From: an uncultured virus (IMG/VR IMGVR_UViG_3300042889_002336) | Lineage: Duplodnaviria; Heunggongvirae; Uroviricota; Caudoviricetes | Direction: 5' to 3' (one strand) | IMG/VR virus record: IMGVR_UViG_3300042889_002336 | DNA: 64,000 nt | Shown here: positions 643 to 48,039 of the stretch, piece after piece | How positions within the stretch are numbered: the stretch's first letter is position 1 | Layout: each line of letters starts with the position of its first letter | The notes under the pieces: model-generated | Database searches by the model: none | Told to the model about the DNA's origin: nothing | Seen by the model: only the letters and a program-made list of their open reading frames with translations | Made by a program: the position numbers and the translations under genes

Positions 643-981
643 TTACAAACTACCTGTTACTGGTGTATTCCAAGGAGCAGCTAAAGTTGCTGTTACTGGA
701 TTGTTTATTAAGTTGATTTGAGAATCAATGTTTGCTTTTATAGCATCCATATCCATTACTGCTTCTAACCACCCTTCTGCTTGTTCTTGAGAAATTTCTA
801 AGAAAGGAGTAAAGTTTTCCGGGTCAGGAGCTCCTACAGATTGTGCTCCGTAAGTCTCTGCAGATGTTCCATTTTCATCAGTACCTCTATATCTCCAGTG
901 TACTGTTGTTACTACTTTTTGCATGTCATCTTCGTTTAAGATGCAATCGAATGGACCTACAGTCCAAGTGTAATTTGTCAT
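643..981 (-). CDS. Hypothetical protein of a type found next to phage tail-fibre genes
   Basis: 112 aa, acidic, YTW..VVTTVHWRY...FTPF....W...PW pattern; A-rich leader. Confidence 0.7.
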   Translation of the reverse strand: MTNYTWTVGPFDCILNEDDMQKVVTTVHWRYRGTDENGTSAETYGAQSVGAPDPENFTPFLEISQEQAEGWLEAVMDMDAIKANIDSQINLINNPVTATLAAPWNTPVTGSL

Positions 982-1005
982 AATCTATTTGTTTTTAATT
1001 TGGTC

Positions 1006-1251
1006 ATCCAGAGCCGAAACTCCCAATTTGTTATCTTTATGTTTCCATAAAGTTCGGACTATATCATCACTCTTACAAGTGTCGGGCGCTCTAGCTGGTT
1101 ATTAAGAGGACTTTACCTCTCCAGTAGTCTCTGAACCTTCCTAGGATGTATCCTAAGCTTGGCTGCTGATTTTCCAATCCTCAAGATTGTTACGCTTTGG
1201 TACTTGAGGCTCTAAGGACTTTCCAGCAATTCACCCGATTTAATCTGGACG
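1006..1251 (-). ncRNA. Group I ribozyme (IA-like core), intergenic, apparently permuted at L1
   Basis: Minus strand: P AATTGCTGGAAA (1231-1220), Q AATCAGCAG (1171-1163), R GTTCAGAGACTA (1136-1125), S ATGATATAGTCC (1067-1056). Helices: P3 UCGGGUG/CGCCCGA, P4 UUGCUG/CAGCAG, P5 extension CCUCAAG/CUUGAGG, P6a UUAGGAU/AUCCUAG, P7 GACUA/UAGUC, P7.1 CUGG-AGAGG..CCUCU..CCAG, P8 CACUU-GUAA-GAGUG, P9 CUUUAUG-GAAA-CAUAAAG; likely omega-G at 1024 (..ACAAAUUG). Confidence 0.93.
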
Positions 1252-1259
1252 TTTTGTTA

Positions 1260-1922
1260 TTATAAATATGGTTGTATTAAATTAATATAAAATTCATCTC
1301 CTCTACTATTAGAAGCTACTGTATATGTTTTTTCACCTGTGTTGCTTATAGTTACCTGTATATCTATAATACCTGCTCCATAATTACTTGATAAGTACTT
1401 ATCTTCATATCCAATAAGACGACCTTTGAAGTCGTAAATAGGGATTCTATCAACAGGTTCTCCTTGAGATTCACTTAAAAGAGTGTAGTTATTTAATCCT
1501 GTTTTTGCTGCTGATGATTTTTCGTACAGCCTATATGCACCTTTATCTACGGTTTGTCGACCTCCGTTACGTCCTCTTTGAGTCATTTTATTTCTAACTG
1601 CAAAATATTTATATGTATTTGTATCTTTTACTACATCTGTTCTCTCTCTAAATACTATATTTGATGCAAGGTTTGCATCTGATATTGCTGATGCACGGTC
1701 TTCTCCTGTTACTACTATTTTGTTACGTGACAAGATTGCATAAGGGAGTGTTACGAATTGATTTGTTCTTGAATCAAATGCCGGAGTTGTTCCGTTTGGA
1801 TCTCTTAGGTCGTAGTAAATTACTGCTCTGTCTCTTGTAGTAAATCTACTCTGTACCTCTACTTTTACTTCTGTAGCAGTTCCCCTATTTACTACTGCAA
1901 ATGCTTGTATTTTCTGTATCAT
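1260..1922 (-). CDS. Hypothetical protein
   Basis: 220 aa ORF, in line with neighbours, no recognisable motif. Confidence 0.65.
   Translation of the reverse strand: MIQKIQAFAVVNRGTATEVKVEVQSRFTTRDRAVIYYDLRDPNGTTPAFDSRTNQFVTLPYAILSRNKIVVTGEDRASAISDANLASNIVFRERTDVVKDTNTYKYFAVRNKMTQRGRNGGRQTVDKGAYRLYEKSSAAKTGLNNYTLLSESQGEPVDRIPIYDFKGRLIGYEDKYLSSNYGAGIIDIQVTISNTGEKTYTVASNSRGDEFYINLIQPYL
1261..1268 (-). promoter_or_regulatory. TATTTATA promoter-like motif directly upstream of the ribozyme
   Basis: Same motif recurs upstream of many minus-strand genes; here it overlaps the stop codon of 1260..1922 and lies 10 nt before the putative IGS. Confidence 0.6.
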
Positions 1923-5503: not shown

Positions 5504-6652
5504 TTAACTTAAATTAAAACGTGTTTTGTATTGTTGGTAGTTTTGTCTTACTTCTTGGGCTGTTAATGCTCTGTTGTATATTTTTGTTACAGGTATTTGT
5601 CCATTAAAAGCATAATTATCTACGTCTCTACCTAACTTTAAAGAAGTAGCTGTTATCAAGGTTGCAGGAGATACCCCATTTTGATAGTATATATCAGTTT
5701 TGATCCCATCTAACCATATATCGTAAGTTGTACCATTCCAATTAAACAACACGTGGTGGTATCCTACCCCTGCATATACTCTATTTGATGTTGCTCCTCC
5801 GCCTGACCATATATGAATAGCTTCATTAGTCATTCCTCCTGTCCAAGCTCCTAAATGTACCCCTGTCCTATCCCCGTTAAATTCTATGGGCGTTTGGTAT
5901 GTTGTAGGACCACCAATTGCAGTATCGTTGTTAGGGATAGCATTATTATTATACCATACCATTTCTAAGCAGTATACCCCTATGCTTGAAGGAAGTGTTA
6001 CTGAAGCATAATCATTCGTACCATCAAATACCATTTTAGCATTTGAATCAAAAGATACATTTGATAAATCTAAGGTACTGTTTCCTATTACTGGAAGAAG
6101 TCCTTGTGTTGCTGAACGAGTTCCATTTACAAATTGAGTTGGGTAGGATTTTTGCTCTATTTGAAGATTAGCTAAATAGTAAGTTGATACAGGTTGACCA
6201 TTACTATATTGCAGGGTTACGTAAAGGTAATCCTGAGAAGTAGCTGTAAAAGTTGTCGATACTCTATTCCATTGCCCTTTTACCCCTGTATATCCTGGTG
6301 CACCGTATCCAAAATAAGATATAGTAGTATTATCACTTGTAAAGTATATATAGAAAGAATAGGTATATGTTACACCGGGTGTTAGTATTGAGGATAGTCC
6401 TGTAAGGTAAACTCCATTCCAGTCTTGTGCTGGGTTCGAAGTATTCCTCAATGTAGCATTTCCAAATAAAGTAAATCCTGTATCAGTTACATGAGTACCT
6501 CCATGATCATTATACGATGTTAATAGTACATTACTTGATGGAAGTACATTAACCGTAGGTTGTCCTCTATAGGAATTACTCACATCACCTGTATCGTAAG
6601 CGAATACTAAATTACTTTCTCCTAATGTATTTGGTCCTCCTGCTACTGGCAT
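5504..6652 (-). CDS. LamG/concanavalin A-like domain virion protein (paralogue of 4234..5502)
   Basis: FDGTNDYA...YHHV....WLDG...FNGQI....IYNRALTAQEV.QNY; shares ends with neighbour. Confidence 0.75.
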   Translation of the reverse strand: MPVAGGPNTLGESNLVFAYDTGDVSNSYRGQPTVNVLPSSNVLLTSYNDHGGTHVTDTGFTLFGNATLRNTSNPAQDWNGVYLTGLSSILTPGVTYTYSFYIYFTSDNTTISYFGYGAPGYTGVKGQWNRVSTTFTATSQDYLYVTLQYSNGQPVSTYYLANLQIEQKSYPTQFVNGTRSATQGLLPVIGNSTLDLSNVSFDSNAKMVFDGTNDYASVTLPSSIGVYCLEMVWYNNNAIPNNDTAIGGPTTYQTPIEFNGDRTGVHLGAWTGGMTNEAIHIWSGGGATSNRVYAGVGYHHVLFNWNGTTYDIWLDGIKTDIYYQNGVSPATLITATSLKLGRDVDNYAFNGQIPVTKIYNRALTAQEVRQNYQQYKTRFNLS

Positions 6653-6877: not shown

Positions 6878-7612
6878 TTATTTTATATAAACTGCTCCGT
6901 AGTTATGTAAATCAGATCCTGCTCCTGCCCAGTTAGGTTGGGCAGCATATCCCCCTCCTGCAGCGAAGTAATTACCATCCCAACAAGCTCCATACCACCA
7001 TGGCTGGTTACCGAAAGCAGTAGAGCAGTTGCTTCCGTAAGCATCTTGATCTTGATCGTAAGTTGAGAGTGAGAATCCATTTGCAGCATGATAACCGTAC
7101 ATACCTGGTGCTCCTGTTGATGTTTCATCGCTTATAGCTGCTACTCCTGTAAATGCGTAAGTACTCGAAAAGCTATTAAATCTCCACCTATATCTTTTTG
7201 CATGTAATCCTGTTGATCCTAATGCTGCTCCTACTGTCGAAGATACAAATTGTACTACTGTTACATAGCTTGAATTTACTCTTTTTCCTAATAATTCCCA
7301 ATACTTAGTTCCTATCCAAATATTATAATTTGATAATCCTGATAGAGGTGAATACGGATCTACTACCGGTCCTGCTGTATTTACAGAACCTCCTGTCCTA
7401 TAGTTACTTGTATTTACAGCATTTGAGTATGTTAAGTTTGTCATACCTCCTGTATTTTCCCTATTGGCTAATACACATATCCAACCACCACCATCATACT
7501 CCTGGTCTACATATACAGTAACGTATTCCCCTCCAAGTTTTATTGAATAAAAACCTGAAGGACCTCTTACGTCTGAAACTTTGTTATGTCTTGGTCCATG
7601 AATCTCAGCCAT
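6878..7612 (-). CDS. Fibrinogen C-terminal-like domain protein
   Basis: SG.Y.I....VYVDQEYDGGGW and STYDQDQD...SNCS......WWYGAC match the fibrinogen-related domain pattern. Confidence 0.72.
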   Translation of the reverse strand: MAEIHGPRHNKVSDVRGPSGFYSIKLGGEYVTVYVDQEYDGGGWICVLANRENTGGMTNLTYSNAVNTSNYRTGGSVNTAGPVVDPYSPLSGLSNYNIWIGTKYWELLGKRVNSSYVTVVQFVSSTVGAALGSTGLHAKRYRWRFNSFSSTYAFTGVAAISDETSTGAPGMYGYHAANGFSLSTYDQDQDAYGSNCSTAFGNQPWWYGACWDGNYFAAGGGYAAQPNWAGAGSDLHNYGAVYIK

Positions 7613-10600
7613 TACTTATCGAATTCTGTTATTAATTTCTCAATATCTTTTCTTTCAGCAAATACTGTATAGAAGCAGTTTATTTCATTTTCTGATCCTA
7701 CCGTAATAGTAGTGTCTGTTACCGTTTCTACCCATAGGTCTTGTCTTTTACCTATTGGTGTTAGGTTCACTGTAATTGTATCTTCATGTACAAGTCCTGT
7801 CCAGTGGTCTGGAAGTGTAATTGTATTGTTGTTTGTTAATTTTCCTCTTACGTAAACTGAATGTTCTGGTCCCTCTAATACTCCGTATTGAAGTTTTTTA
7901 CCTTCTTTGGTTGGGTGATCAATGATGAACGATTTTACAGTTGCTGTAAGTGTTCCTGTTATGTTTGTATTTCCGTTTACATCTAGTTTATATCCTGGTG
8001 ATGTTGTTCCAATACCTACGTTACCGCCATTTGGATTTAAAGATAAGTTATAATTTATAGCGTGATTACCTTTATTTGTAGCCTGTAGCCATGCATACGT
8101 TGCAGGACCCGATACCCCAATATGCATACCCATGTCTAGAGCTTCACCCCATCCTTCTGTACTGGCTGGATCTACTCTAAAGATTCCGTTTTGAGTTGTA
8201 CCTGAAGTTGCAGGTTGACCTTCATCTCCTCTAACATGAAGTTTTTGAGAAGGGGAAGATTCTCCTATACCTACGTTACCGTTGTTCTTGATAATCATTT
8301 TGGTAGTTCCTGCTGTATTAGCTCCTCCCGTACCAAAGTCTATGTCAGGAGAACTTACTGCAGAACCTAGATTCATGTAAGTTGTACCGTAACTGCTATT
8401 CAATATTGTCCAACCTGAACCATTCCATAGCTGGTTCATACATAACATAGTGTCAGGTGATACAGCTGTACCGTACGTACCCCATCTAAATGCTGCTCCT
8501 ACGGATGCGTTTTGTTGAAAATGTGCTAATCCGCCAACTACATCTAACTTGTTTGTTGGGTTATTTGTTCCAATACCTACGTTACCTGCCGAAGTAATAC
8601 GCATCTTCTCCGTAATAGAAGAGTTGGTATTAGTTGTTCCTAATATTAAAGCTCCATTCCAACTGCTAGCACTTCCTTCTTTTATACCTTGAATTTTTCC
8701 AAAAACATATGGAGTAGTTCCTGTTGTTGTATTTGTTCCTCCTAATGCTATAGATCCCCCTATATCAGCCGCTGCTGTATTAGTTGTAAATACATTGATG
8801 TTTCCGTAACTATCAAATATTTCGTTTGTGTCTGCAACGTGTAATTTAGCAGTTGGACTTGTAGTTCCAATACCTACATTACCGTCTTCTGCAATTGTTA
8901 ACTTAGCATCTGCAAGGGTAGCGTTATTTGCATCTCCTTGAGGTCCGTTTAGTATATGTATTTTTCCTTGAGCGTTATTTGCTGTGAGGTCTGTTCTTTC
9001 AAATACTATTGCAGATTTTCTATATAAGTTGTTAGATTCTCTATATCCAAAATGAATACCTGCAAATTGACCAACACCTATTGAATTAACACCAACAGAA
9101 ACAAAATTATTACCGTCTGAGATTACTTCTAATGGTCTTTGAGGGCTGCTTGTTCCAATACCTAACCTTCCATTACTGTTATCCCAAAAGAAATTCGCAT
9201 TTGAAGATTGAGAAGTTGTTCCTGTCCAAAAAGCTACTCGTCCATTTGCTCCTGTTCCTGTTACTGGATTTGTAAGTGCTAATTGGAAAGCACTTGCATG
9301 ATTTCCATCTAATAAATCTGCATCTAATCCTGATGAAGCTCCGTCATTTCCTGCATGCCAATACTTATCTCCTGAATTGTCTGATGATCCTTTCCATAGA
9401 TCTCCATCTGAACCCATCCAAGCAACAATTCCTGATGCTCCGTTACCGAACCCTGTTCCTGTTGTTCCTGCGTAGTAGTTTAAGTATATTCCATTATTGC
9501 TGTTTGCAGCGTCTAGGTGTATGTTACCATCTGTTGTAACAATACTTGCCATTTCAGTTCCTGTAGCAGTTCTGCCATTTCCTCCTATTCTTAGAGAAGA
9601 TCCCCAACTTGAGTTTGGTCCAAATGTTATATGGTTATCTGCTCCGGTAGTTAGGTTTCCTGTAAATACGTCATCTGCATCACTTCTTATAAAAGAAGCA
9701 GCGTGTAATGAGTCTACTGTATCTGCATTGGTAGCTGTTGCAGCATTTCCTGATAAAGCTCCTATAAAAGTCGTAGCTGAAATATCACCTATGATTTCTG
9801 TGTTACTTATGGCAGGTAAGCTGTTTGAAGCCCATGAAGTAGATGATAAATTTAATGTCTGAGTGCAGTATCCGTCAAATAGAACTACTGGGGAGTTTGT
9901 ATTCTCTGACCATACATATACTCCTACCCATCCGTCTACTACTTCTATATCTCCTATTCTTAAACTATTTCTTGCTGCTCCTACTGCTGCTGATTGTCTT
10001 GTCTGTCCTGAATCTATTGTGGTACTGTTATTTGATGTATATACACCAAACTCTATTTCAAGAACTCCCATAATAGCTGCCCAGTTCCAGGCACCTCCTA
10101 CTCGAATTCTACCTCCCATAAAACAAGCTCCTTGTGAGGTTTGGTATAATCTTACAAACCATCTACCGCCACCTGCATTTGCACTTGGTGATGGTAGGGC
10201 TATTTGCCTAATGTAGTGATTTCCGTTTAATAGAAGATTGTTTGCAATTGAAGCATTTGGTGTACCTAATGTTGTTCCGTCAAATGTTAAATTTGCTTCA
10301 CCATCAACTGTTGAACCTCCTGTAGCTGTTAATACTCTATTATCTGTATTTCCATTTATAGATAAGGTTGGTCCTGTTGCACCTGTTACTCCTACTGGTC
10401 CAGTAGCACCACTAACACCTATTACACCTGTTGCACCTGATACTCCGATTACCCCAGTAGCCCCAGATACACCTGTTGGCCCTACTACTCCTGTTGCCCC
10501 GCTTACTCCAGTCGGACCTGTTAAACCAGTTGCCCCAGATACTCCGATTACACCGGTAGCACCGCTTACTCCTGTTGGCCCTACTACTCCTGTTGCTCCG

Positions 10601-13600
10601 CTTACCCCTGTTGGTCCGGTAAGACCAGTAGCACCTGATACTCCGATTACTCCTGTTGCTCCTGATACACCTGTTGGACCTGTTAAACCAGTTGCACCAC
10701 TTACTCCGATTACCCCAGTTGCACCGCTTACTCCTATTACTCCTGTAGCTCCTTGAGGTCCTGTAGCACCTTGAATACCGGTAGCTCCAGCCACTGTTGG
10801 TGTTTGAGCAAACATAGCATAAGAAGCAGTTCCAAATAATGAACCTGTTATACTTCCTTGTACTTTTATTGATCCTGTAACATTCATTACATCATCTGAT
10901 GAATCACCAAATTTTGTTGAACCTGATTGGTATATAATAGAAGATGATACAAATTCTGTATGGAATTCTTCTGCTGTTATTTTTCCTGTTACTGTAAGTG
11001 ATCCTGTTATGATTGCATTACCGTTTACATCTAGTTTTGCATTTGGAGTTGTTGTTCCAATACCTACGTTACCTGACGAGCTTATCATCATTCTTGTGGT
11101 AGTTCCTCCTGTTGCAAATTCTAAATTTCCACCACTATCAGTAACGTTTGTGTTAGAACCTATAAATGCGAAGACATTATTACCACTATTTGCCCACTGT
11201 ACTGATCCGTTTGTTGTACTATCAGTTGTCTGTAATCTTACAATAGGTGCTGTGGCTGCTGCTTTAGCTATATGAAGTGCCGTGGAAGGGCCTGTTGTTC
11301 CAATACCTACGTTACCTGCTGAGGTAATTATTGCTTTTTCTGATCCGTTTGTTTTGAAATTTATATTATTTGAAGAAACCCATATCTGATTGTCAGTTGT
11401 ATTACCTAAGTCAATTGTTGGTGTCTGTATTCTTAATGATCCATTTATGTCTAAAGCCCTAAACGGTGTTGTTGTTCCAATACCTACGTTACCTGAAGAG
11501 TCAATACGCATTCTTTCGGTTAAAACATTACTTGTATTGGCATTATAAAAACGTAATTCGCTTCCGTTTGCACTACTAGCAACATCCGTTGCTTCTATTC
11601 TTGCTCTATTTTCTTGTGAAAATCCTAAAAAATTTAATTGTGTTAATTCTGGATTTGCTGTTGTTCCAGCATTTGAATTTGATATACTTATTGAAGTTGT
11701 TCCACTACCTAAAACATTAAGTTTTGAAATAGGACTTGTCGTTCCAATACCAACATTTGTACCGTTGTCAAATATTAAAGAGTTTCCAATGGCTGTACCA
11801 CTTGTAAATTTAGCAACATAATTTGTTGTACCACTTACTCCTGGTCCTGTGGCTCCAGTAACCCCTGTTGGACCTGTTAATCCTGTTGCTCCACTAACAC
11901 CAATTACTCCGGTTGCACCTGTTACTCCTATTGGACCTGTTGCTCCTTGAATACCAGTCGGTCCTGTTAAACCTGTTGCTCCTGATACACCAACTACTCC
12001 TGTAGCTCCGCTAACACCTACTGCTCCTGTTGGTCCAGTCAATCCTGTAGCTCCGCTTACTCCAATTACCCCTGTTGCACCTGATACTCCGGTTGGACCT
12101 GTAAGTCCTGTTGCTCCTGATACTCCAATTGGACCGGTTGCTCCTTGAATACCGGTTGGTCCTGTTAGTCCTGTAGCTCCTTGTGGACCTGTAGGTCCGG
12201 TTGCACCGGTTACCCCTGCTATTCCAGAAACTGTAATTACATTACCACTTGAATCTGTTGCTAGATATGCTGCTGCTGTTCCTGGAAATGCTGCTGTGCT
12301 GTTGTAAGCCGGCATTGCCATTTGCTTACTATGCATACTCCACCAAGCTACTTCTGCATCACTTCCAGCGTTTGTACCTCTTAGTATTCTAAGTCTGTTT
12401 TGATAAAGATCAAACATTGACGCAGATGTATAAGTACCTCCTGAAGCATTAAATCCTAATTGACCTCCTTCTCCTGCTGTATCTCTAGCTCCTAAAGTTA
12501 AAGTATTTTCACTTGGTCCTAAAGAACTTGATCCTATTACTGCAGAACCTGTTATAATTGTATTTCCGTTTACATTTAAAGAACTTCCATTAAATGTTAA
12601 ATTTGCTTCACCATTTACTGTTGAACCGCCTGTTGCTGTAAGTATGTAATTATCTGTATTGTTTACTACTGCTAGAGTAGCTCCTGTTGCACCTGTAAGA
12701 CCTGTTGCTCCACTTACTCCGACTACTCCCGTAGCTCCACTTACTCCTGTTGGACCTGTTAATCCTGTTGCCCCAGATACTCCGATGACTCCAGTTGGAC
12801 CTGTAAGTCCTGTTGGTCCAGTCAATCCTGTAGCTCCTGATACACCTACTACTCCTGTAGCACCTTGAGGTCCAGTTGCTCCTGTTGCCCCTGCTACTGT
12901 TGGTGTTTGTGCAAATAAAGCGTATGAAGCTGTTCCTTGTAAAGAACCTGTTATTCCTGCTGTTACTATTAAAGATCCTGTTACTTGTGTAGTACTGTTT
13001 ATTGATACAACTGATCCATTATCTGATATATTACTATCATTTAGATGTTCTATACCTGTTCCTTTTGGTATTCTGTTTGCTGTTAGGTATGTTTCATTAC
13101 CTAAATTATTATATGTTTCTGGTCCTAATAGGAAAACAGATGATGTTATTGCACCGGCTGATGTTCCTTTATGTACAAATATAAATTCATCTTGAAGTGA
13201 ATCATATAGGAATGAACCAGATACTGTTGGTGATGATCCTGAATCAATTACTGCTAATCCTCCAAATCTTGTAGAAGGATTGAAGGTGTTTACTGTAATT
13301 AAATTTGTACCAATATTAAGTGTTGATTCTGAAATATATTGAATAGATGCAGATCCTAATACTGTTATATTATTTGTTATAGTAAGTGATCCGGTTATTG
13401 TTCCTCCTGTTAGAGGAAGATAGTTTGGAGCCAGTGAAGCTGTTAAAGCATGTGATGCTGTTGTAGCTGTTGTTGCGTTTCCTGTTAATGGTCCTACAAA
13501 AGAAGTTGCATTTAAAGATCCTGTTAACCCGTAAGATCCGGTTAATTGTCTAGAATTAATCCAAACACTTCCACTTTTTACTAATAAATCTCCATATGAT

Positions 13601-14202
13601 GAAGTTGTTGTAGTGTCTACTACATCATGTAATTCTCCTAATTCATATCCATTATCAATACGGACATACATTGAACCATTATTAGTCTGTACTCTTAGTA
13701 CTTGCCCTAATCTTACAGCATGTAATGGTGCTACGGGTGCTGTTCCTATTATAGATCCAGCTGCTCCTAAATAAAGTAATTGTCCTGCTGAGAATGCATT
13801 TGTGTTTATTCCTATTAAGGTACCTTCAGTTATTACATATCCAAAGCTATCATTAGGGATATCTTGATTGGTAATACCTAAAGTGTTAGCTGAAACTGGA
13901 TCACTTTCATATGAGGCTGTTGATATTAAAGCATTATCACCTGTTGCTCCTGATATTCTTACTACTTTTCCTTTGTTGATTTGAGCTCCAGTTACATTTT
14001 TAACATATATTAAAATGTCTTGAGCATTTTGAGAATTAGATGCTGTTAATGCAAAATTTGCATATGAAGCTGTTACAGCATTTGAAGCAGAAACTGCCCA
14101 TGAAGCAGTTCCGAATAAAGAACTTGTTATTCCGTTTGAAACGGTAAGAGAGTTTAAAGCAGCATCTGAGCCGCTAATTATGACTTTTTTCCAACTTGGC
14201 AT
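7612..14202 (-). CDS. Giant tail fibre with collagen-like (Gly-X-Y) segments and GNVGIGT modules
   Basis: 2196 aa; three G-A/P/V/L-T/S triplet runs; at least 9 G(N/R)(V/L)GIG modules; C-terminal KSFIIDHP...L.YG.LEGPE..VY.RG domain. Confidence 0.85.
8006..11493. repeat. Dispersed exact 20-mer GTTCCAATACCTACGTTACC within the fibre gene
   Basis: Exact copies at 8006, 8567, 11054, 11297, 11474; one-mismatch copy at 8864. Confidence 0.85.
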
Positions 14203-47047: not shown

Positions 47048-47605
47048 TTACCAGTATCCACTAAAGTTTCTACTACCTCCCAATGATTTCCAATATCTTC
47101 CGATATTACAAGCCCAGTATCCTGGTTTTGTTTTATCTTTTTTAGTAGCACATTTATGTCTAGCTGCAAAAGAAGATCTTGCTCCTGGCTCGTCGATCTT
47201 AACATTCAATCCTGTTGTACCTCCAAAAGATACTTTTACTACATTTCCTTTTTTATTTTTAGTATAAACGTAGAATTTTTTGGATCCGCCTCTTTTTGGT
47301 TTGTTTAAAGGAACATCTTTACCTCTGTATTCTGCTTCTTCAAGTTCTTCATCGACCATTGGAAGATCTAAAGGAACTTTCTGTCCTTCATACATTCCAT
47401 ACTCTCCAATATCTGTTAATTCTAGCAGTAGAATATCTTGTTCACTTAATACAATTTTACCGTCTCTAAAGGCTTGTCTTGCTTCAGCAAACAATTGTAT
47501 AAACGAGTCAGAGGAGTACCTGTAGACACATTCAGATAGTGTTAGCTTGTTGTCTAAATGGTACTGAAGGTTTGGTAATCCAACTATTTCCTGTAATCTT
47601 ATCAT
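47048..47605 (-). CDS. Hypothetical protein
   Basis: Basic C-terminal module after LEE: AEYRGK.V.LNKPKRGG.KKFYVY...SF.ARHKC.....PGYWAC. Confidence 0.7.
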   Translation of the reverse strand: MIRLQEIVGLPNLQYHLDNKLTLSECVYRYSSDSFIQLFAEARQAFRDGKIVLSEQDILLLELTDIGEYGMYEGQKVPLDLPMVDEELEEAEYRGKDVPLNKPKRGGSKKFYVYTKNKKGNVVKVSFGGTTGLNVKIDEPGARSSFAARHKCATKKDKTKPGYWACNIGRYWKSLGGSRNFSGYW

Positions 47606-48039
47606 AAGAAATCTTTTCTAAAATATCTTCCTTCTATATTATCATTTATATAGTTGGAATCTGGTTCTATTACTCCTTTTATAAATAGTAATTTATTTTC
47701 ATAGTATGTATGAAGCTTTTTATTTGGAGTAAATATAAGAATTTCTCTTGAGAATTCCGACTGTTTACCTTCTTTTACTAAGCCTTTTATTTCTGAGTGA
47801 GAACCATAATAGGTTTTCCAATCAGATTCTTTTCTAACTATTTTAGATTTACTAGCTCTTTTATCTGTTATTAAAGCTAATTCTTTTTTACCTAAAGCTT
47901 TTTTTGTAACAGAAATAAGTTGTTTCTTTCCTAAGTATTTTCTACCGGTTGGTAGATGTGTTACTTCATAGATAAACCCGAAGTTGTCTCCGGGCATATC
48001 TTCTAGTTCTTTAATTTCTTTGTTTTGATATAACCACAT
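47602..48039 (-). CDS. GIY-YIG-like nuclease domain protein
   Basis: GFIYEVT....GRKYLGKK, YYGS, F.REIL, E, YINDNI. Confidence 0.65.
   Translation of the reverse strand: MWLYQNKEIKELEDMPGDNFGFIYEVTHLPTGRKYLGKKQLISVTKKALGKKELALITDKRASKSKIVRKESDWKTYYGSHSEIKGLVKEGKQSEFSREILIFTPNKKLHTYYENKLLFIKGVIEPDSNYINDNIEGRYFRKDFL

What the first reader, a model, noticed from the sequence alone, without database searches (positions are those of the whole stretch)
985..1268. Free-standing group I ribozyme with its 5' splice site placed after its 3' splice site (natural L1-permuted, self-targeting ribozyme)
Seen in sequence: a complete group I core (P3-P9, P/Q/R/S, P7.1 insertion, GNRA loops on P8/P9, AA/UU P9.0, omega-G at about 1024) lies between two intact genes. 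No P1 hairpin is visible upstream. Instead, 10 nt after the TATTTATA motif, the RNA starts AUAACAAAAC-GUCCAGA-UUAAA-P3. CGUCCAGA (1251-1244) pairs over 8 bp with UCUGGAUG (1012-1005), DOWNSTREAM of omega-G, and the single wobble is G1250.U1006. Established: a U.G wobble near the top of P1 defines the group I 5' splice site, and engineered guide-first, target-last group I constructs circularise the RNA between omega-G and the target. Inference: this is a natural ribozyme opened at L1 with its own transcription start, working as an RNA-processing enzyme in the tail-fibre/sheath region rather than as a parasitic intron. I do not know whether natural examples have been reported.
Basis: partly seen in the sequence, partly recalled or inferred. 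Interest (0 to 1): 0.93.

Follow-up and report, generated by a model that had tools for sequence, protein, structure and literature searches.

The report
Guide-first group I ribozyme, no exon
A complete self-splicing-type (group I) RNA enzyme sits between two whole genes of a lake T4-like phage with nothing upstream for it to splice, and its guide sequence instead matches a site just downstream of itself, so it may simply cut itself off the next gene's messenger RNA.

Summary
Rfam finds one full-length group I intron match (96.9 bits, cut-off 50) on the minus strand. The conserved unit is about 1255-1024. It lies between a complete gene A (1922-1260; all 39 aligned homologues end ...PYL) and a complete gene B (981-643, DUF7936).

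No 5' exon partner for the guide exists upstream. By homology to a conventional relative (L023), the guide GUCCAGA (1250-1244) has G1250 in the wobble register. Its only good partner is UCUGGAU|G (1012-1005), 18 nt after omega-G 1024. The duplex is -12.4 kcal/mol, against -6.1 for the best upstream site. It appears in the MFE and centroid folds of the window and of relative L017. An in-register match in the leader has a chance of about 0.5-1%.

TATTTATA, 5 nt before the unit, is a recurrent promoter-like motif.

Function is unproven. Only three distinct variants of the arrangement were retrievable, and the guide is invariant in them, so covariation could not be tested. L017 lost two distal pairs and its gene B is dead. 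The same core occurs in another context.

Best reading (about 0.45): a 5'-exon-less ribozyme derived from a mobile intron, which cuts after U1006 using guanosine. Main rival: a stranded mobile intron.

Earlier findings of this scan held no such case on other DNA.

The parts
1260..1922 (-). Gene A (220 aa, no family). It is complete, with stop TAA at 1262-1260.
   Evidence: 39 of 39 aligned proteins share the C-terminus ...FY(I/T)N(L/I)(I/V)(Q/H)xYL.
1261..1268 (-). TATTTATA promoter-like motif (sense strand). It overlaps gene A's last codons (Y-L-stop).
   Evidence: 15 sense copies in the window. 11 are intergenic or at gene edges, and 9 lie 10-25 nt upstream of an ATG. Its role as a promoter is inferred, not shown.
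1024..1255 (-). The conserved ribozyme unit: L1-like AAAAC, IGS, J1/3, P3-P9 with a P7.1 insertion, then omega-G.
   Evidence: Rfam 96.9 bits. There is 1 difference in 232 nt versus L002/L016 and 6 in 232 versus L017. Core positions are shared with relatives that split genes.
1244..1251 (-). The guide: IGS GUCCAGA (1250-1244) plus C1251. G1250 is in the wobble position.
   Evidence: It has the same register as the GCGGAUG + UAAAAUCGGG of the conventional intron in L023. It is invariant in L002, L016 and L017.
1232..1238 (-). P3 5' strand UCGGGUG, which pairs with CGCCCGA at 1088-1082.
   Evidence: Rfam structure line and MFE fold.
1068..1081 (-). P8 hairpin CACUU-GUAA-GAGUG.
   Evidence: The helix is kept with other sequences in L017, L023, L025 and L026.
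1035..1052 (-). P9 hairpin with a GAAA loop.
   Evidence: Compensatory variants are seen in L023, L025 and L026.
1024..1024 (-). Omega-G, the 3' end of the intron-type unit.
   Evidence: RNA contig X20 matches 1189->1024 with 0 mismatches and is unlike the window from the next base on. L017 diverges from 1022 on. The position aligns with the 3' splice sites of L023 and L026.
1013..1023 (-). Tether between omega-G and the target (GGAGUUUCGGC). It is G+C-richer than the other leaders of this phage.
   Evidence: 5 of its 11 nt differ in L017, without any change in length.
1005..1012 (-). The target UCUGGAU|G. The predicted guanosine attack site lies between U1006 and G1005.
   Evidence: L017 has AAUGGAUG, which keeps 6 pairs.
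982..1004 (-). A-rich leader of gene B that would remain after the cut.
   Evidence: It resembles the other leaders that follow TATTTATA in this phage.
643..981 (-). Gene B (112 aa; DUF7936 / phrog_7802), intact.
1253..1260 (-). ATAACAAA, the first copy of an 8-nt direct repeat that brackets the ribozyme. The second copy is at 1034-1027.
   Evidence: Read. The repeat is not exact in L017. Its meaning is unknown.

Best explanation
**What it is.** A complete group I ribozyme of the phage IA type with a P7.1 insertion (the subgroup is my reading, not a test). It derives from a mobile intron lineage. It is lodged in the leader of gene B of a T4-like lake phage, about 5 nt behind a recurrent promoter-like motif.

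**What is unusual.** It has no 5' exon and no P1 hairpin, so it cannot splice in the ordinary way, and it has no need to, because it interrupts no gene. Its internal guide (GUCCAGA, with G1250 as the wobble G) pairs with UCUGGAU (1012-1006), which is tethered 18 nt behind omega-G. This forms a P1 helix 'opened at L1'.

**Predicted reaction (inferred, not shown).** Exogenous guanosine or GTP bound in the P7 site attacks the bond between U1006 and G1005. This is first-step chemistry only. It would cut the ribozyme, and any gene A read-through RNA, away from gene B's mRNA. Gene B's mRNA would then start with an added G followed by GACCAAAUU....

**Other possible reactions.** Hydrolysis at omega-G is a possible side reaction. 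A second step would make an 18-nt circle, but that is unlikely because no P10 is evident.

**Benefit.** Whether the cut helps the phage or only makes a selfish element harmless is open.
For: **Shown by sequence or computation**
- The core is real and looks intact. Rfam gives 96.9 bits. It shares the P3, P4, P6, P7 and J8/7 positions with relatives that split a capsid gene and a glycosyltransferase-like gene, and P8 and P9 show compensatory variation.
- Genes A and B are both whole. In the ribozyme-free relative L008, the counterparts of A and B are 22 nt apart.
- There is no upstream partner for the guide. The best contiguous in-register site is 6 pairs at U1409, inside conserved coding sequence, and it weakens to 4 pairs in L017.
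- The guide is in the same register as the IGS of the conventional relative L023, which has a canonical 7-bp P1 with U.G.
- The guide-target duplex is -12.4 kcal/mol against -6.1 for the best upstream site. It is part of the MFE and the centroid structures of both the window and L017.
- An in-register match in the 43-nt leader is expected by chance at 0.5-1.1%.
- UGGAUG and the 18-nt spacing are kept in L017, although 7 of these 18 nt differ.
- TATTTATA recurs before genes, and the highly conserved unit starts about 5 nt after this copy.

**Weak hints**
- At 88% likeness or more, RNA-library contigs cover the ribozyme part of the stretch; elsewhere only 869-907 inside gene B is covered, and gene A not at all.
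- One RNA contig (X21, 185 nt, 3 mismatches) runs 1187->1006 and ends 3 nt later.
Against: - No catalysis was observed. No joint or mapped RNA end proves cleavage. The laid runs are contigs, which cannot show ends.
- There is no covariation. The guide is identical in all 4 loci, and L017's two target changes (UC->AA) break the two distal pairs without compensation.
- In L017, gene B is reduced to a stop-riddled remnant while the ribozyme stays 97% identical. The ribozyme is therefore not kept for gene B there.
- The core is 97-99% identical while gene A is 74-79% identical, with 68-71% at third codon positions. That fits recent lateral spread of a selfish element at least as well as selection.
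- The same core (166 of 166 nt) is joined after G1024 to a tRNA-like flank in another sample. This is ordinary mobile-intron behaviour.
- The complementarity was noticed after the fact, and its chance probability of about 1% is not negligible.
- The transcription start is inferred from a motif only.
Confidence: 0.45

Rival explanations
1. A stranded mobile intron. A group I intron, or its IGS-to-3'-flank part, landed by illegitimate recombination or endonuclease-driven repair in a harmless spacer. It lost its 5' exon context and does nothing useful. The downstream complement would then be a footprint of the donor or of a cryptic homing site. For example, the donor 3' exon may have repeated the 5' exon's last bases with an 18-nt, six-codon period. 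Or it may be chance.
For: - Relatives of the core are classical mobile introns, including one with a LAGLIDADG ORF in L1 of a capsid-gene intron.
- The core is near-identical in diverged phages, and similarity breaks sharply at omega-G.
- L017 keeps the ribozyme beside a dead gene B.
- The G+C-rich 22 nt after omega-G look foreign to the A-rich leaders of this phage, so the target probably arrived with the element.
- An 8-nt direct repeat brackets the ribozyme.
- A SegE-type GIY-YIG endonuclease gene lies in the window at 47602-48039.
Against: - A useless ribozyme in a spacer should decay, yet all 4 loci (3 variants) carry an intact core, and their differences fall in loops or keep P8 paired.
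- All 3 distinct full-length gene A loci with downstream DNA have the ribozyme at the same site.
- The in-register complement has a chance of only 0.5-1%.
- No donor gene with this IGS or tail was found: 0 other loci for the 22-nt tail and 0 other loci for the IGS+P3 19-mer in viral contigs.
- Even if the origin is as described, a folded core with a tethered 8-bp P1 would be expected to cut there.
Confidence: 0.35
2. A permuted intron-exon (back-splicing) element. After the cut at U1006, the new 3'-OH attacks the omega-G bond. This releases the ribozyme and an 18-nt circular RNA (1023-1006).
For: The order omega-G ... 5' splice site in one transcript is that of engineered PIE and cis-splicing designs (passages of PMC11417360). 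It is also that of the coral mitochondrial case, seen as a passage in PMC8637638.
Against: - No P10 is evident. The 3'-exon start GGAG does not pair with AAAAC beyond one G-C.
- An 18-nt circle with 7 nt held in P1 is sterically strained, and no function for it is apparent.
- No joint was seen in the RNA contigs, although contigs could hardly show one.
Confidence: 0.08
3. Conventional or trans splicing from an unrecognised 5' splice site, either inside gene A (for example after U1409) or on another transcript ending in UCUGGAU.
For: - UUGGAU at 1414-1409 gives 6 in-register pairs.
- 17 in-register 7-bp sites exist on the sense strand of the window.
Against: - Splicing from U1409 would delete about 50 conserved C-terminal residues of gene A, which are present in all 39 homologues.
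- That site drops to 4 pairs in L017.
- No split gene is evident on either side.
- No joints were seen.
Confidence: 0.05

Closest known systems
Self-splicing group I introns of phages (IA type with P7.1), such as the relatives L023, L025 and L026 found here; T4 td and Twort orf142 are recalled examples
   Same: The same conserved core, omega-G, and an IGS placed directly before J1/3-P3. The lineage is mobile, and one relative carries a LAGLIDADG ORF.
   Different: This copy has no 5' exon strand and no P1 hairpin, interrupts no gene, and has no exons to ligate. The guide's complement lies 18 nt after omega-G.
Engineered guide-first ribozymes and permuted intron-exon / cis-splicing circularisation designs (L-21-type Tetrahymena ribozyme, recalled; PMC11417360, abstract and passages read)
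   Same: The IGS lies at or near the 5' end of the RNA, the substrate strand is supplied from elsewhere, and the 5' splice site comes after the 3' splice site.
   Different: This one is natural and sits in a phage mRNA leader. The 'exon' between omega-G and the target is only 18 nt and no P10 is evident, so cleavage is expected, not useful circularisation.
Back-spliced giant group I intron of mushroom-coral mitochondria (Chi et al. 2019; seen only as cited in a passage of PMC8637638)
   Same: A natural group I precursor in which exon order is permuted relative to the ribozyme.
   Different: There the splicing joins misordered coding exons of an organelle gene. Here there is no coding exon, the unit is compact at 232 nt, and it lies in a phage.
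Lariat-capping ribozyme (GIR1)
   Same: A group I-derived ribozyme that acts on the RNA just downstream of its own core and creates the 5' end of a downstream mRNA (passage of PMC8637638).
   Different: GIR1 has a remodelled core and makes a 2',5' branch. Here the core is a standard group I, matched by RF00028 and by no other Rfam family at gathering score. The predicted chemistry is ordinary guanosine attack.
c-di-GMP-II / group I allosteric ribozyme of Clostridioides difficile
   Same: A group I ribozyme in an mRNA leader whose choice of GTP attack site decides the shape of the downstream mRNA (review passages). The detail that the alternative attack site lies near the 3' end is recalled from Lee et al. 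2010, which is not held.
   Different: No riboswitch aptamer is present here, and there is no conventional 5' splice site at all.
HYER: ORF-less group IIC-derived hydrolytic ribozymes
   Same: The concept of an intron-derived ribozyme standing alone and using its guide on a target instead of splicing.
   Different: A different ribozyme class (group II), different chemistry, and it acts in trans.

Membership tests
Group I intron (Rfam RF00028) | Conserved catalytic core P3-P9 that scores above the family threshold | tested here: met
   96.9 bits against a gathering score of 50, covering model positions 1-253 of 253. L002, L016 and L017 score 93.6-95.7.
Group I intron (Rfam RF00028) | P7 guanosine site and a terminal omega-G | tested here: met
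   The P7 strands (1129-1125 and 1061-1057) and J8/7 are invariant with relatives. Homology ends at G1024 in two independent comparisons. Activity itself was not tested.
Group I intron (Rfam RF00028) | P1 hairpin: the end of the 5' exon pairs with the IGS, with U.G at a 5' splice site upstream of the core | tested here: not met
   There is no in-register partner within the 244 nt upstream (best duplex -6.1 kcal/mol; best contiguous match 6 pairs, inside conserved coding sequence). The P1 in the Rfam alignment is mispaired.
Group I intron (Rfam RF00028) | Interrupts a gene whose exons are ligated | tested here: not met
   Genes A and B are each complete. In a ribozyme-free relative the two genes are 22 nt apart.
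Group I intron (Rfam RF00028) | Self-splicing or guanosine-dependent cleavage | not testable with these tools
   This needs in vitro transcription or raw RNA reads. Contigs showed no joints.
Permuted intron-exon / back-splicing group I | The 5' splice site (a U.G-bearing P1 strand) lies downstream of omega-G on the same transcript | tested here: met
   UCUGGAU|G at 1012-1005, 18 nt after G1024, pairs in register with the IGS.
Permuted intron-exon / back-splicing group I | Circular ligated exon product, with P10 support for the second step | tested here: inconclusive
   No P10 beyond one G-C pair is readable. The product itself cannot be tested here.
Lariat-capping ribozyme (GIR1) | GIR1-type remodelled core | tested here: not met
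   Only RF00028 reaches a gathering score in the window.
c-di-GMP-II-controlled group I ribozyme | A c-di-GMP-II aptamer directly upstream | tested here: not met
   No riboswitch family reaches its gathering score in the window. Gene A's coding end lies directly upstream.
IStron | An IS200/IS605-type transposase or TnpB module at the 3' end of the intron | tested here: not met
   The neighbours are DUF7936, a 90-aa ORF without a family, and tail-fibre-type genes. No transposase family appears among the 60 ORFs scanned.

The most novel reading that the evidence does not exclude
A natural 'L1-opened' group I ribozyme cassette. It is transcribed from a phage late-type promoter so that its guide sits at the very 5' end of the RNA. 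It uses first-step chemistry alone on a target tethered behind omega-G to cut itself off the downstream mRNA. That mRNA would be left with an added guanosine (possibly GTP, hence a triphosphate) at its 5' end. This would be an RNA-processing module that evolved from a mobile intron and travels as guide + core + tether + target.
Probability: 0.3. Interest if true: 0.9.

Novelty: new variant of a known kind. Interest (0 to 1): 0.7.

Why it matters
**If the guide-target pairing is used.** In nature, group I ribozymes are known almost only as introns that ligate exons. This would be a natural counterpart of the laboratory guide-first ribozymes. It would be a second example, after the lariat-capping ribozyme, of a group I core turned into an mRNA 5'-end-forming device, and the first in a phage.

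**What it would show.** An intron landing in a leader can stay harmless without any 5' exon. It would also supply a compact, naturally evolved cis-cleaving scaffold of 232 nt.

**If the rival holds.** The locus is still a clear case of a group I core kept intact outside any gene. That bears on how ORF-less introns spread and persist in T4-like phages.

Tried and rejected
**Rejected readings**
- Gene A split by the intron with a short exon 2: rejected. I derived two open continuations by hand, but all 39 homologues end ...PYL at the stop.
- Gene B extended upstream: rejected, because of the in-frame TAG and the DUF7936 match starting at residue 1.
- An upstream 5' splice site at U1409: rejected.

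**Searches for cultured relatives**
- Megablast of 600-2000 gave 4 records with a 42-nt match only.
- tblastn of gene A gave none.
- blastn of the ribozyme gave 133 records of partial core matches, covering 48% or less.

**Searches for more copies**
- Viral-contig scan with the gene A alignment: 14 loci, of which 2 are full length.
- Metagenome scan: 7 loci, of which 3 are full length; L015 is the same contig as L002.
- 26-nt core pattern: 5 loci.
- 31-nt P7-P9 pattern: 3 viral loci and 2 genome loci. The latter are introns beside 23S-like sequence (my reading) in candidate-phyla bacteria.
- Motif + P3 pattern: 12 loci. I read 2 of the 10 new ones (L036, L038); both are coding chance matches, and the other 8 share the same 31-nt match length and were not read.
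- 22-nt tail: the window's own contig only.
- IGS+P3 19-mer: the window's contig and L002 only.

**The window's assembly**
- It is not held.
- The nearest record, G001, lacks this region.

**RNA runs (4 of 24 listed runs laid; all are contigs)**
- No joints were seen.
- Gene A has no cover. Gene B is covered only at 869-907, by contigs that run on unlike the window. The tool states that missing cover is not evidence.
- The 30-nt loose end of contig X20 was not found in viral contigs or in the window. It resembles tRNA 3' halves, but I could not place the intron position or the IGS of that copy.

**Other checks**
- There are no tRNA genes in the window.
- A sigma-70-type scan around the locus gave 7 sites against 5.2 expected, which is uninformative.
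- Literature: no natural phage or bacterial guide-first or permuted group I ribozyme turned up in the searches. Nothing was found on TATTTATA as a phage promoter.
- Lee 2010 and Chen 2011 are not held.
- Earlier findings of this scan held nothing equivalent.
Full report
**1. What is there**

On the minus strand, Rfam's group I intron model (RF00028) matches 1299..1035 at 96.9 bits (gathering score 50, E 9e-24, full model length). It is the only family above threshold in the 64-kb window.

Read from the sequence, guided by that alignment and by a thermodynamic fold:

| Element | Coordinates |
|---|---|
| P3 | 1238-1232 with 1088-1082 |
| P7 | 1129-1125 with 1061-1057 |
| P7.1-type insertion | about 1124-1093 |
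| P8 (GUAA loop) | 1081-1068 |
| P9 (GAAA loop) | 1052-1035 |
| Tail AUAACAAAUUG ending in G1024 | 1034-1024 |

The part of the Rfam alignment assigned to P1/P2 (1299-1262) is badly paired and lies in coding sequence. It is not a real P1.

**2. The flanks are two whole genes**

- Gene A (1922-1260, 220 aa) has 95 database relatives.
- I aligned 38 of the full-length ones with it. All 39 sequences end ...FY(I/T)N(L/I)(I/V)(Q/H)xYL, with Y219 and L220 invariant. The stop at 1262-1260 is therefore the true end.
- Gene B (981-643) matches DUF7936 from residue 1 and phrog_7802. A TAG lies in frame just before its ATG.
- In the ribozyme-free relative L008, a gene A paralogue and a gene B homologue are 22 nt apart.
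- The ribozyme interrupts nothing, so there are no exons to join.

**3. No conventional P1, and a guide that points downstream**

- L023 is a relative with the same P3-P4 sequence and a textbook arrangement. Its 5' exon CAUCCGU pairs with GCGGAUG, with U.G at the splice site. The spliced reading frame gives ...SDHP|LSPSGVGTQ... (my reading).
- Its IGS lies directly before UAAAAUCGGG.
- In the window, GUCCAGA (1250-1244) lies directly before UUAAAUCGGG. G1250 is therefore the homologous wobble G.
- The expected 5' exon, UCUGGAU, is absent upstream. Allowing wobbles, the next match on the sense strand is at 6307.
- The best duplex in the 244 nt upstream is -6.1 kcal/mol. The best contiguous in-register match is 6 pairs at U1409, inside conserved codons, and it falls to 4 pairs in L017.
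- Downstream, UCUGGAUG (1012-1005) pairs with CGUCCAGA (1251-1244) at -12.4 kcal/mol.
- This helix appears in both the MFE and the centroid of the 282-nt RNA 1256->975 (z = -3.9). The 6-bp version appears in L017 (z = -3.0).
- In-register sites of 7 or more pairs occur 17 times on the 64,000-nt sense strand, so 0.011 are expected in the 43-nt leader. Shuffles of the leader give 0.5%.
- The match is unlikely to be chance, but it was noticed after the fact.

**4. A promoter-like motif in front**

- TATTTATA on the sense strand occurs 15 times in the window.
- 11 copies are intergenic or at gene edges, in a window that is about 95% coding. Nine of them lie 10-25 nt before an ATG.
- The copy at 1268-1261 has the same extended context (TATTTATAATAA) as several others. 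It overlaps gene A's Y-L-stop codons.
- If it acts like a T4-type late promoter, transcripts would start at about A1255. The distance from motif to start is recalled from T4, not tested. Position 1255 is where near-perfect conservation among relatives begins.
- Such transcripts would carry the guide at their 5' end and could have no 5' exon.
No RNA 5' end was seen, and I found no paper on this motif.

**5. Relatives**

The phage is T4-like: Gp23 capsid, Gp20 portal, T4-type terminase and prohead protease. G+C is 35%. No cultured relative holds this locus.

Only three further loci with a full gene A and downstream DNA could be retrieved: L002/L015, L016 and L017. All carry the ribozyme at the same place.

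| Comparison with the window | Ribozyme (232 nt) | Gene A nucleotides | Gene A third positions |
|---|---|---|---|
| L002 / L016 | 1 difference | 79% identical | 71% |
| L017 | 6 differences | 74% identical | 68% |

- L017's differences fall in loops or keep P8 paired (CACUU-UUU-AAGUG).
- Directly after G1023 the similarity collapses. 7 of the 18 nt between omega-G and the predicted cut differ in L017, with no change in length.
- UGGAUG is kept. The two distal target bases changed (UC->AA) without compensation.
- The guide is invariant, so no covariation test is possible.
- In L017, gene B is a short stop-riddled remnant followed by another TATTTATA and the next gene.

**6. The core belongs to a mobile lineage**

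- The 26-nt P3-P4 pattern also finds L023, L025 and L026.
- L023 lies in a gene with a weak, below-threshold glycosyltransferase match. L025 and L026 are in the same kind of gene as each other.
- In L026 that gene is a capsid gene, with Phage_capsid_3 split at profile position 69/70. A LAGLIDADG ORF sits in L1 and runs into the IGS and P3.
- L025 and L026 reach Rfam's threshold. L023 and L027 do not.
- In a freshwater RNA library, a 207-nt contig (X20) matches 1189->1024 without a mismatch, then continues with 41 nt unlike the window.
- The shown 30 nt of that continuation resemble tRNA 3' halves: 89% to a phage tRNA-Thr and 96% over 24 nt to a cyanophage tRNA-Trp.
- The same core therefore sits in another context, and the unit ends exactly at G1024.

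**7. How the target got there**

- The 22 nt after omega-G (GGAGUUUCGGCUCUGGAUGACC) are G+C-rich, unlike the A-rich leaders of this phage. They occur nowhere else in the window or in the viral contigs.
- They probably arrived with the ribozyme.
- One possible origin, which is speculation: the donor site lay in an 18-nt (six-codon) tandem repeat, so that the 3' exon repeated the end of the 5' exon.
- An 8-nt direct repeat (ATAACAAA, 1260-1253 and 1034-1027) brackets the ribozyme. Its meaning is unknown.

**8. Mechanism**

Shown: an intact-looking core, a guide in the right register, a tethered complement, and a tether of 11 nt plus the 10-nt tail before omega-G. By my estimate that tether is long enough to let P1 dock.

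Inferred: guanosine attack after U1006 (first step only) would separate the ribozyme from gene B's mRNA. Hydrolysis at omega-G is a possible side reaction. A second step giving an 18-nt circle is unlikely, because no P10 is evident.

Weak hints from RNA libraries:
- In the four libraries laid, contigs cover the ribozyme part; the only other cover is 869-907 inside gene B, by contigs that run on unlike the window.
- Contig X21 (185 nt, 3 mismatches) runs 1187->1006 and ends 3 nt later.
- Contigs cannot show ends, and no joints were seen.

**9. Weighing the readings**

For function:
- the register of the guide;
- the low chance probability of the match;
- retention of the six cleavage-proximal pairs and of the spacing in L017;
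- presence in all three distinct loci;
- an intact core outside any gene.

For a stranded selfish intron:
- the mobile relatives;
- near-identity across diverged phages, with a sharp break at omega-G;
- persistence beside a dead gene B;
- uncompensated target changes.

The two readings overlap. Whatever its origin, a folded core with this tethered P1 would be expected to cut there. My odds are:

| Reading | Odds |
|---|---|
| Self-targeted cleavage | about 0.45 |
| Inert relic | 0.35 |
| Back-splicing | 0.08 |
| Hidden conventional or trans splicing | 0.05 |
| Other | the remainder |

**10. What is known**

- Natural circularly permuted group II introns are described.
- A permuted group I precursor is reported in coral mitochondria (passages of PMC8637638).
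- The C. difficile riboswitch-ribozyme shifts its attack site in a leader (review passages; the original papers are not held).
- My searches found no natural phage or bacterial group I ribozyme with a guide-first, target-last layout.
- This is a new variant of a known kind. The evidence for the architecture is solid, and the evidence for its use is still missing.

Noticed in passing
window, sense (minus) strand: 60596, 56125, 32579, 31480, 29875, 27993, 21381, 19686, 1268, 205 and others: TATTTATA recurs 15 times on the coding strand. 11 copies are intergenic or at gene edges, mostly 10-25 nt before start codons, often as TATTTATAA(T/A)AA. It is probably this T4-like phage's late-type promoter. 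It is the reverse complement of T4's TATAAATA (the T4 consensus is recalled).
   Followed up: partly
window 1253-1260 and 1027-1034 (minus strand): An exact 8-nt direct repeat, ATAACAAA, brackets the ribozyme. One copy overlaps gene A's stop codon and the other lies just before UUG (omega-G). It is not exact in L017. It may be a recombination footprint.
   Followed up: partly
window 47602-48039 (minus strand): A free-standing SegE-type GIY-YIG endonuclease gene (Pfam E 3e-26), 46 kb from the ribozyme. It is a possible agent of gene conversion in this phage.
   Followed up: no
RNA run X20, contig of 207 nt laid on window 1024-1189: The same ribozyme (166 of 166 nt) continues after G1024 with a tRNA-like 3' half containing GGUUCGAUCC. 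This suggests a copy of the intron inside a tRNA gene of an unknown lake phage or bacterium.
   Followed up: partly
L017 3447-3590: Gene B is reduced to a remnant of about 100 nt with stops (ATG ATA AAT TAC AGT TGG TAA...), followed by another TATTTATA and the next gene. The ribozyme in front of it is intact.
   Followed up: partly
L026 153-419 and 1156-1446: A phage capsid gene (Phage_capsid_3) carries two group I introns. The second has a LAGLIDADG ORF in L1 whose 3' end overlaps the IGS and P3. The last exon U there seems to face an A, not a G, in the IGS.
   Followed up: partly
L030 and L031 (genome contigs of Candidatus Falkowbacteria and Saccharibacteria): Two candidate-phyla bacteria carry group I introns beside a sequence I read as 23S rRNA-like. 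They share an identical 31-nt P7-P9 segment with the phage ribozyme.
   Followed up: no
window 7612-14202 (minus strand): A 2196-aa ORF with collagen triple-helix repeats lies in the tail-fibre region. It is followed by fibrinogen-C, Laminin_G_3 and endosialidase-chaperone domain proteins.
   Followed up: no
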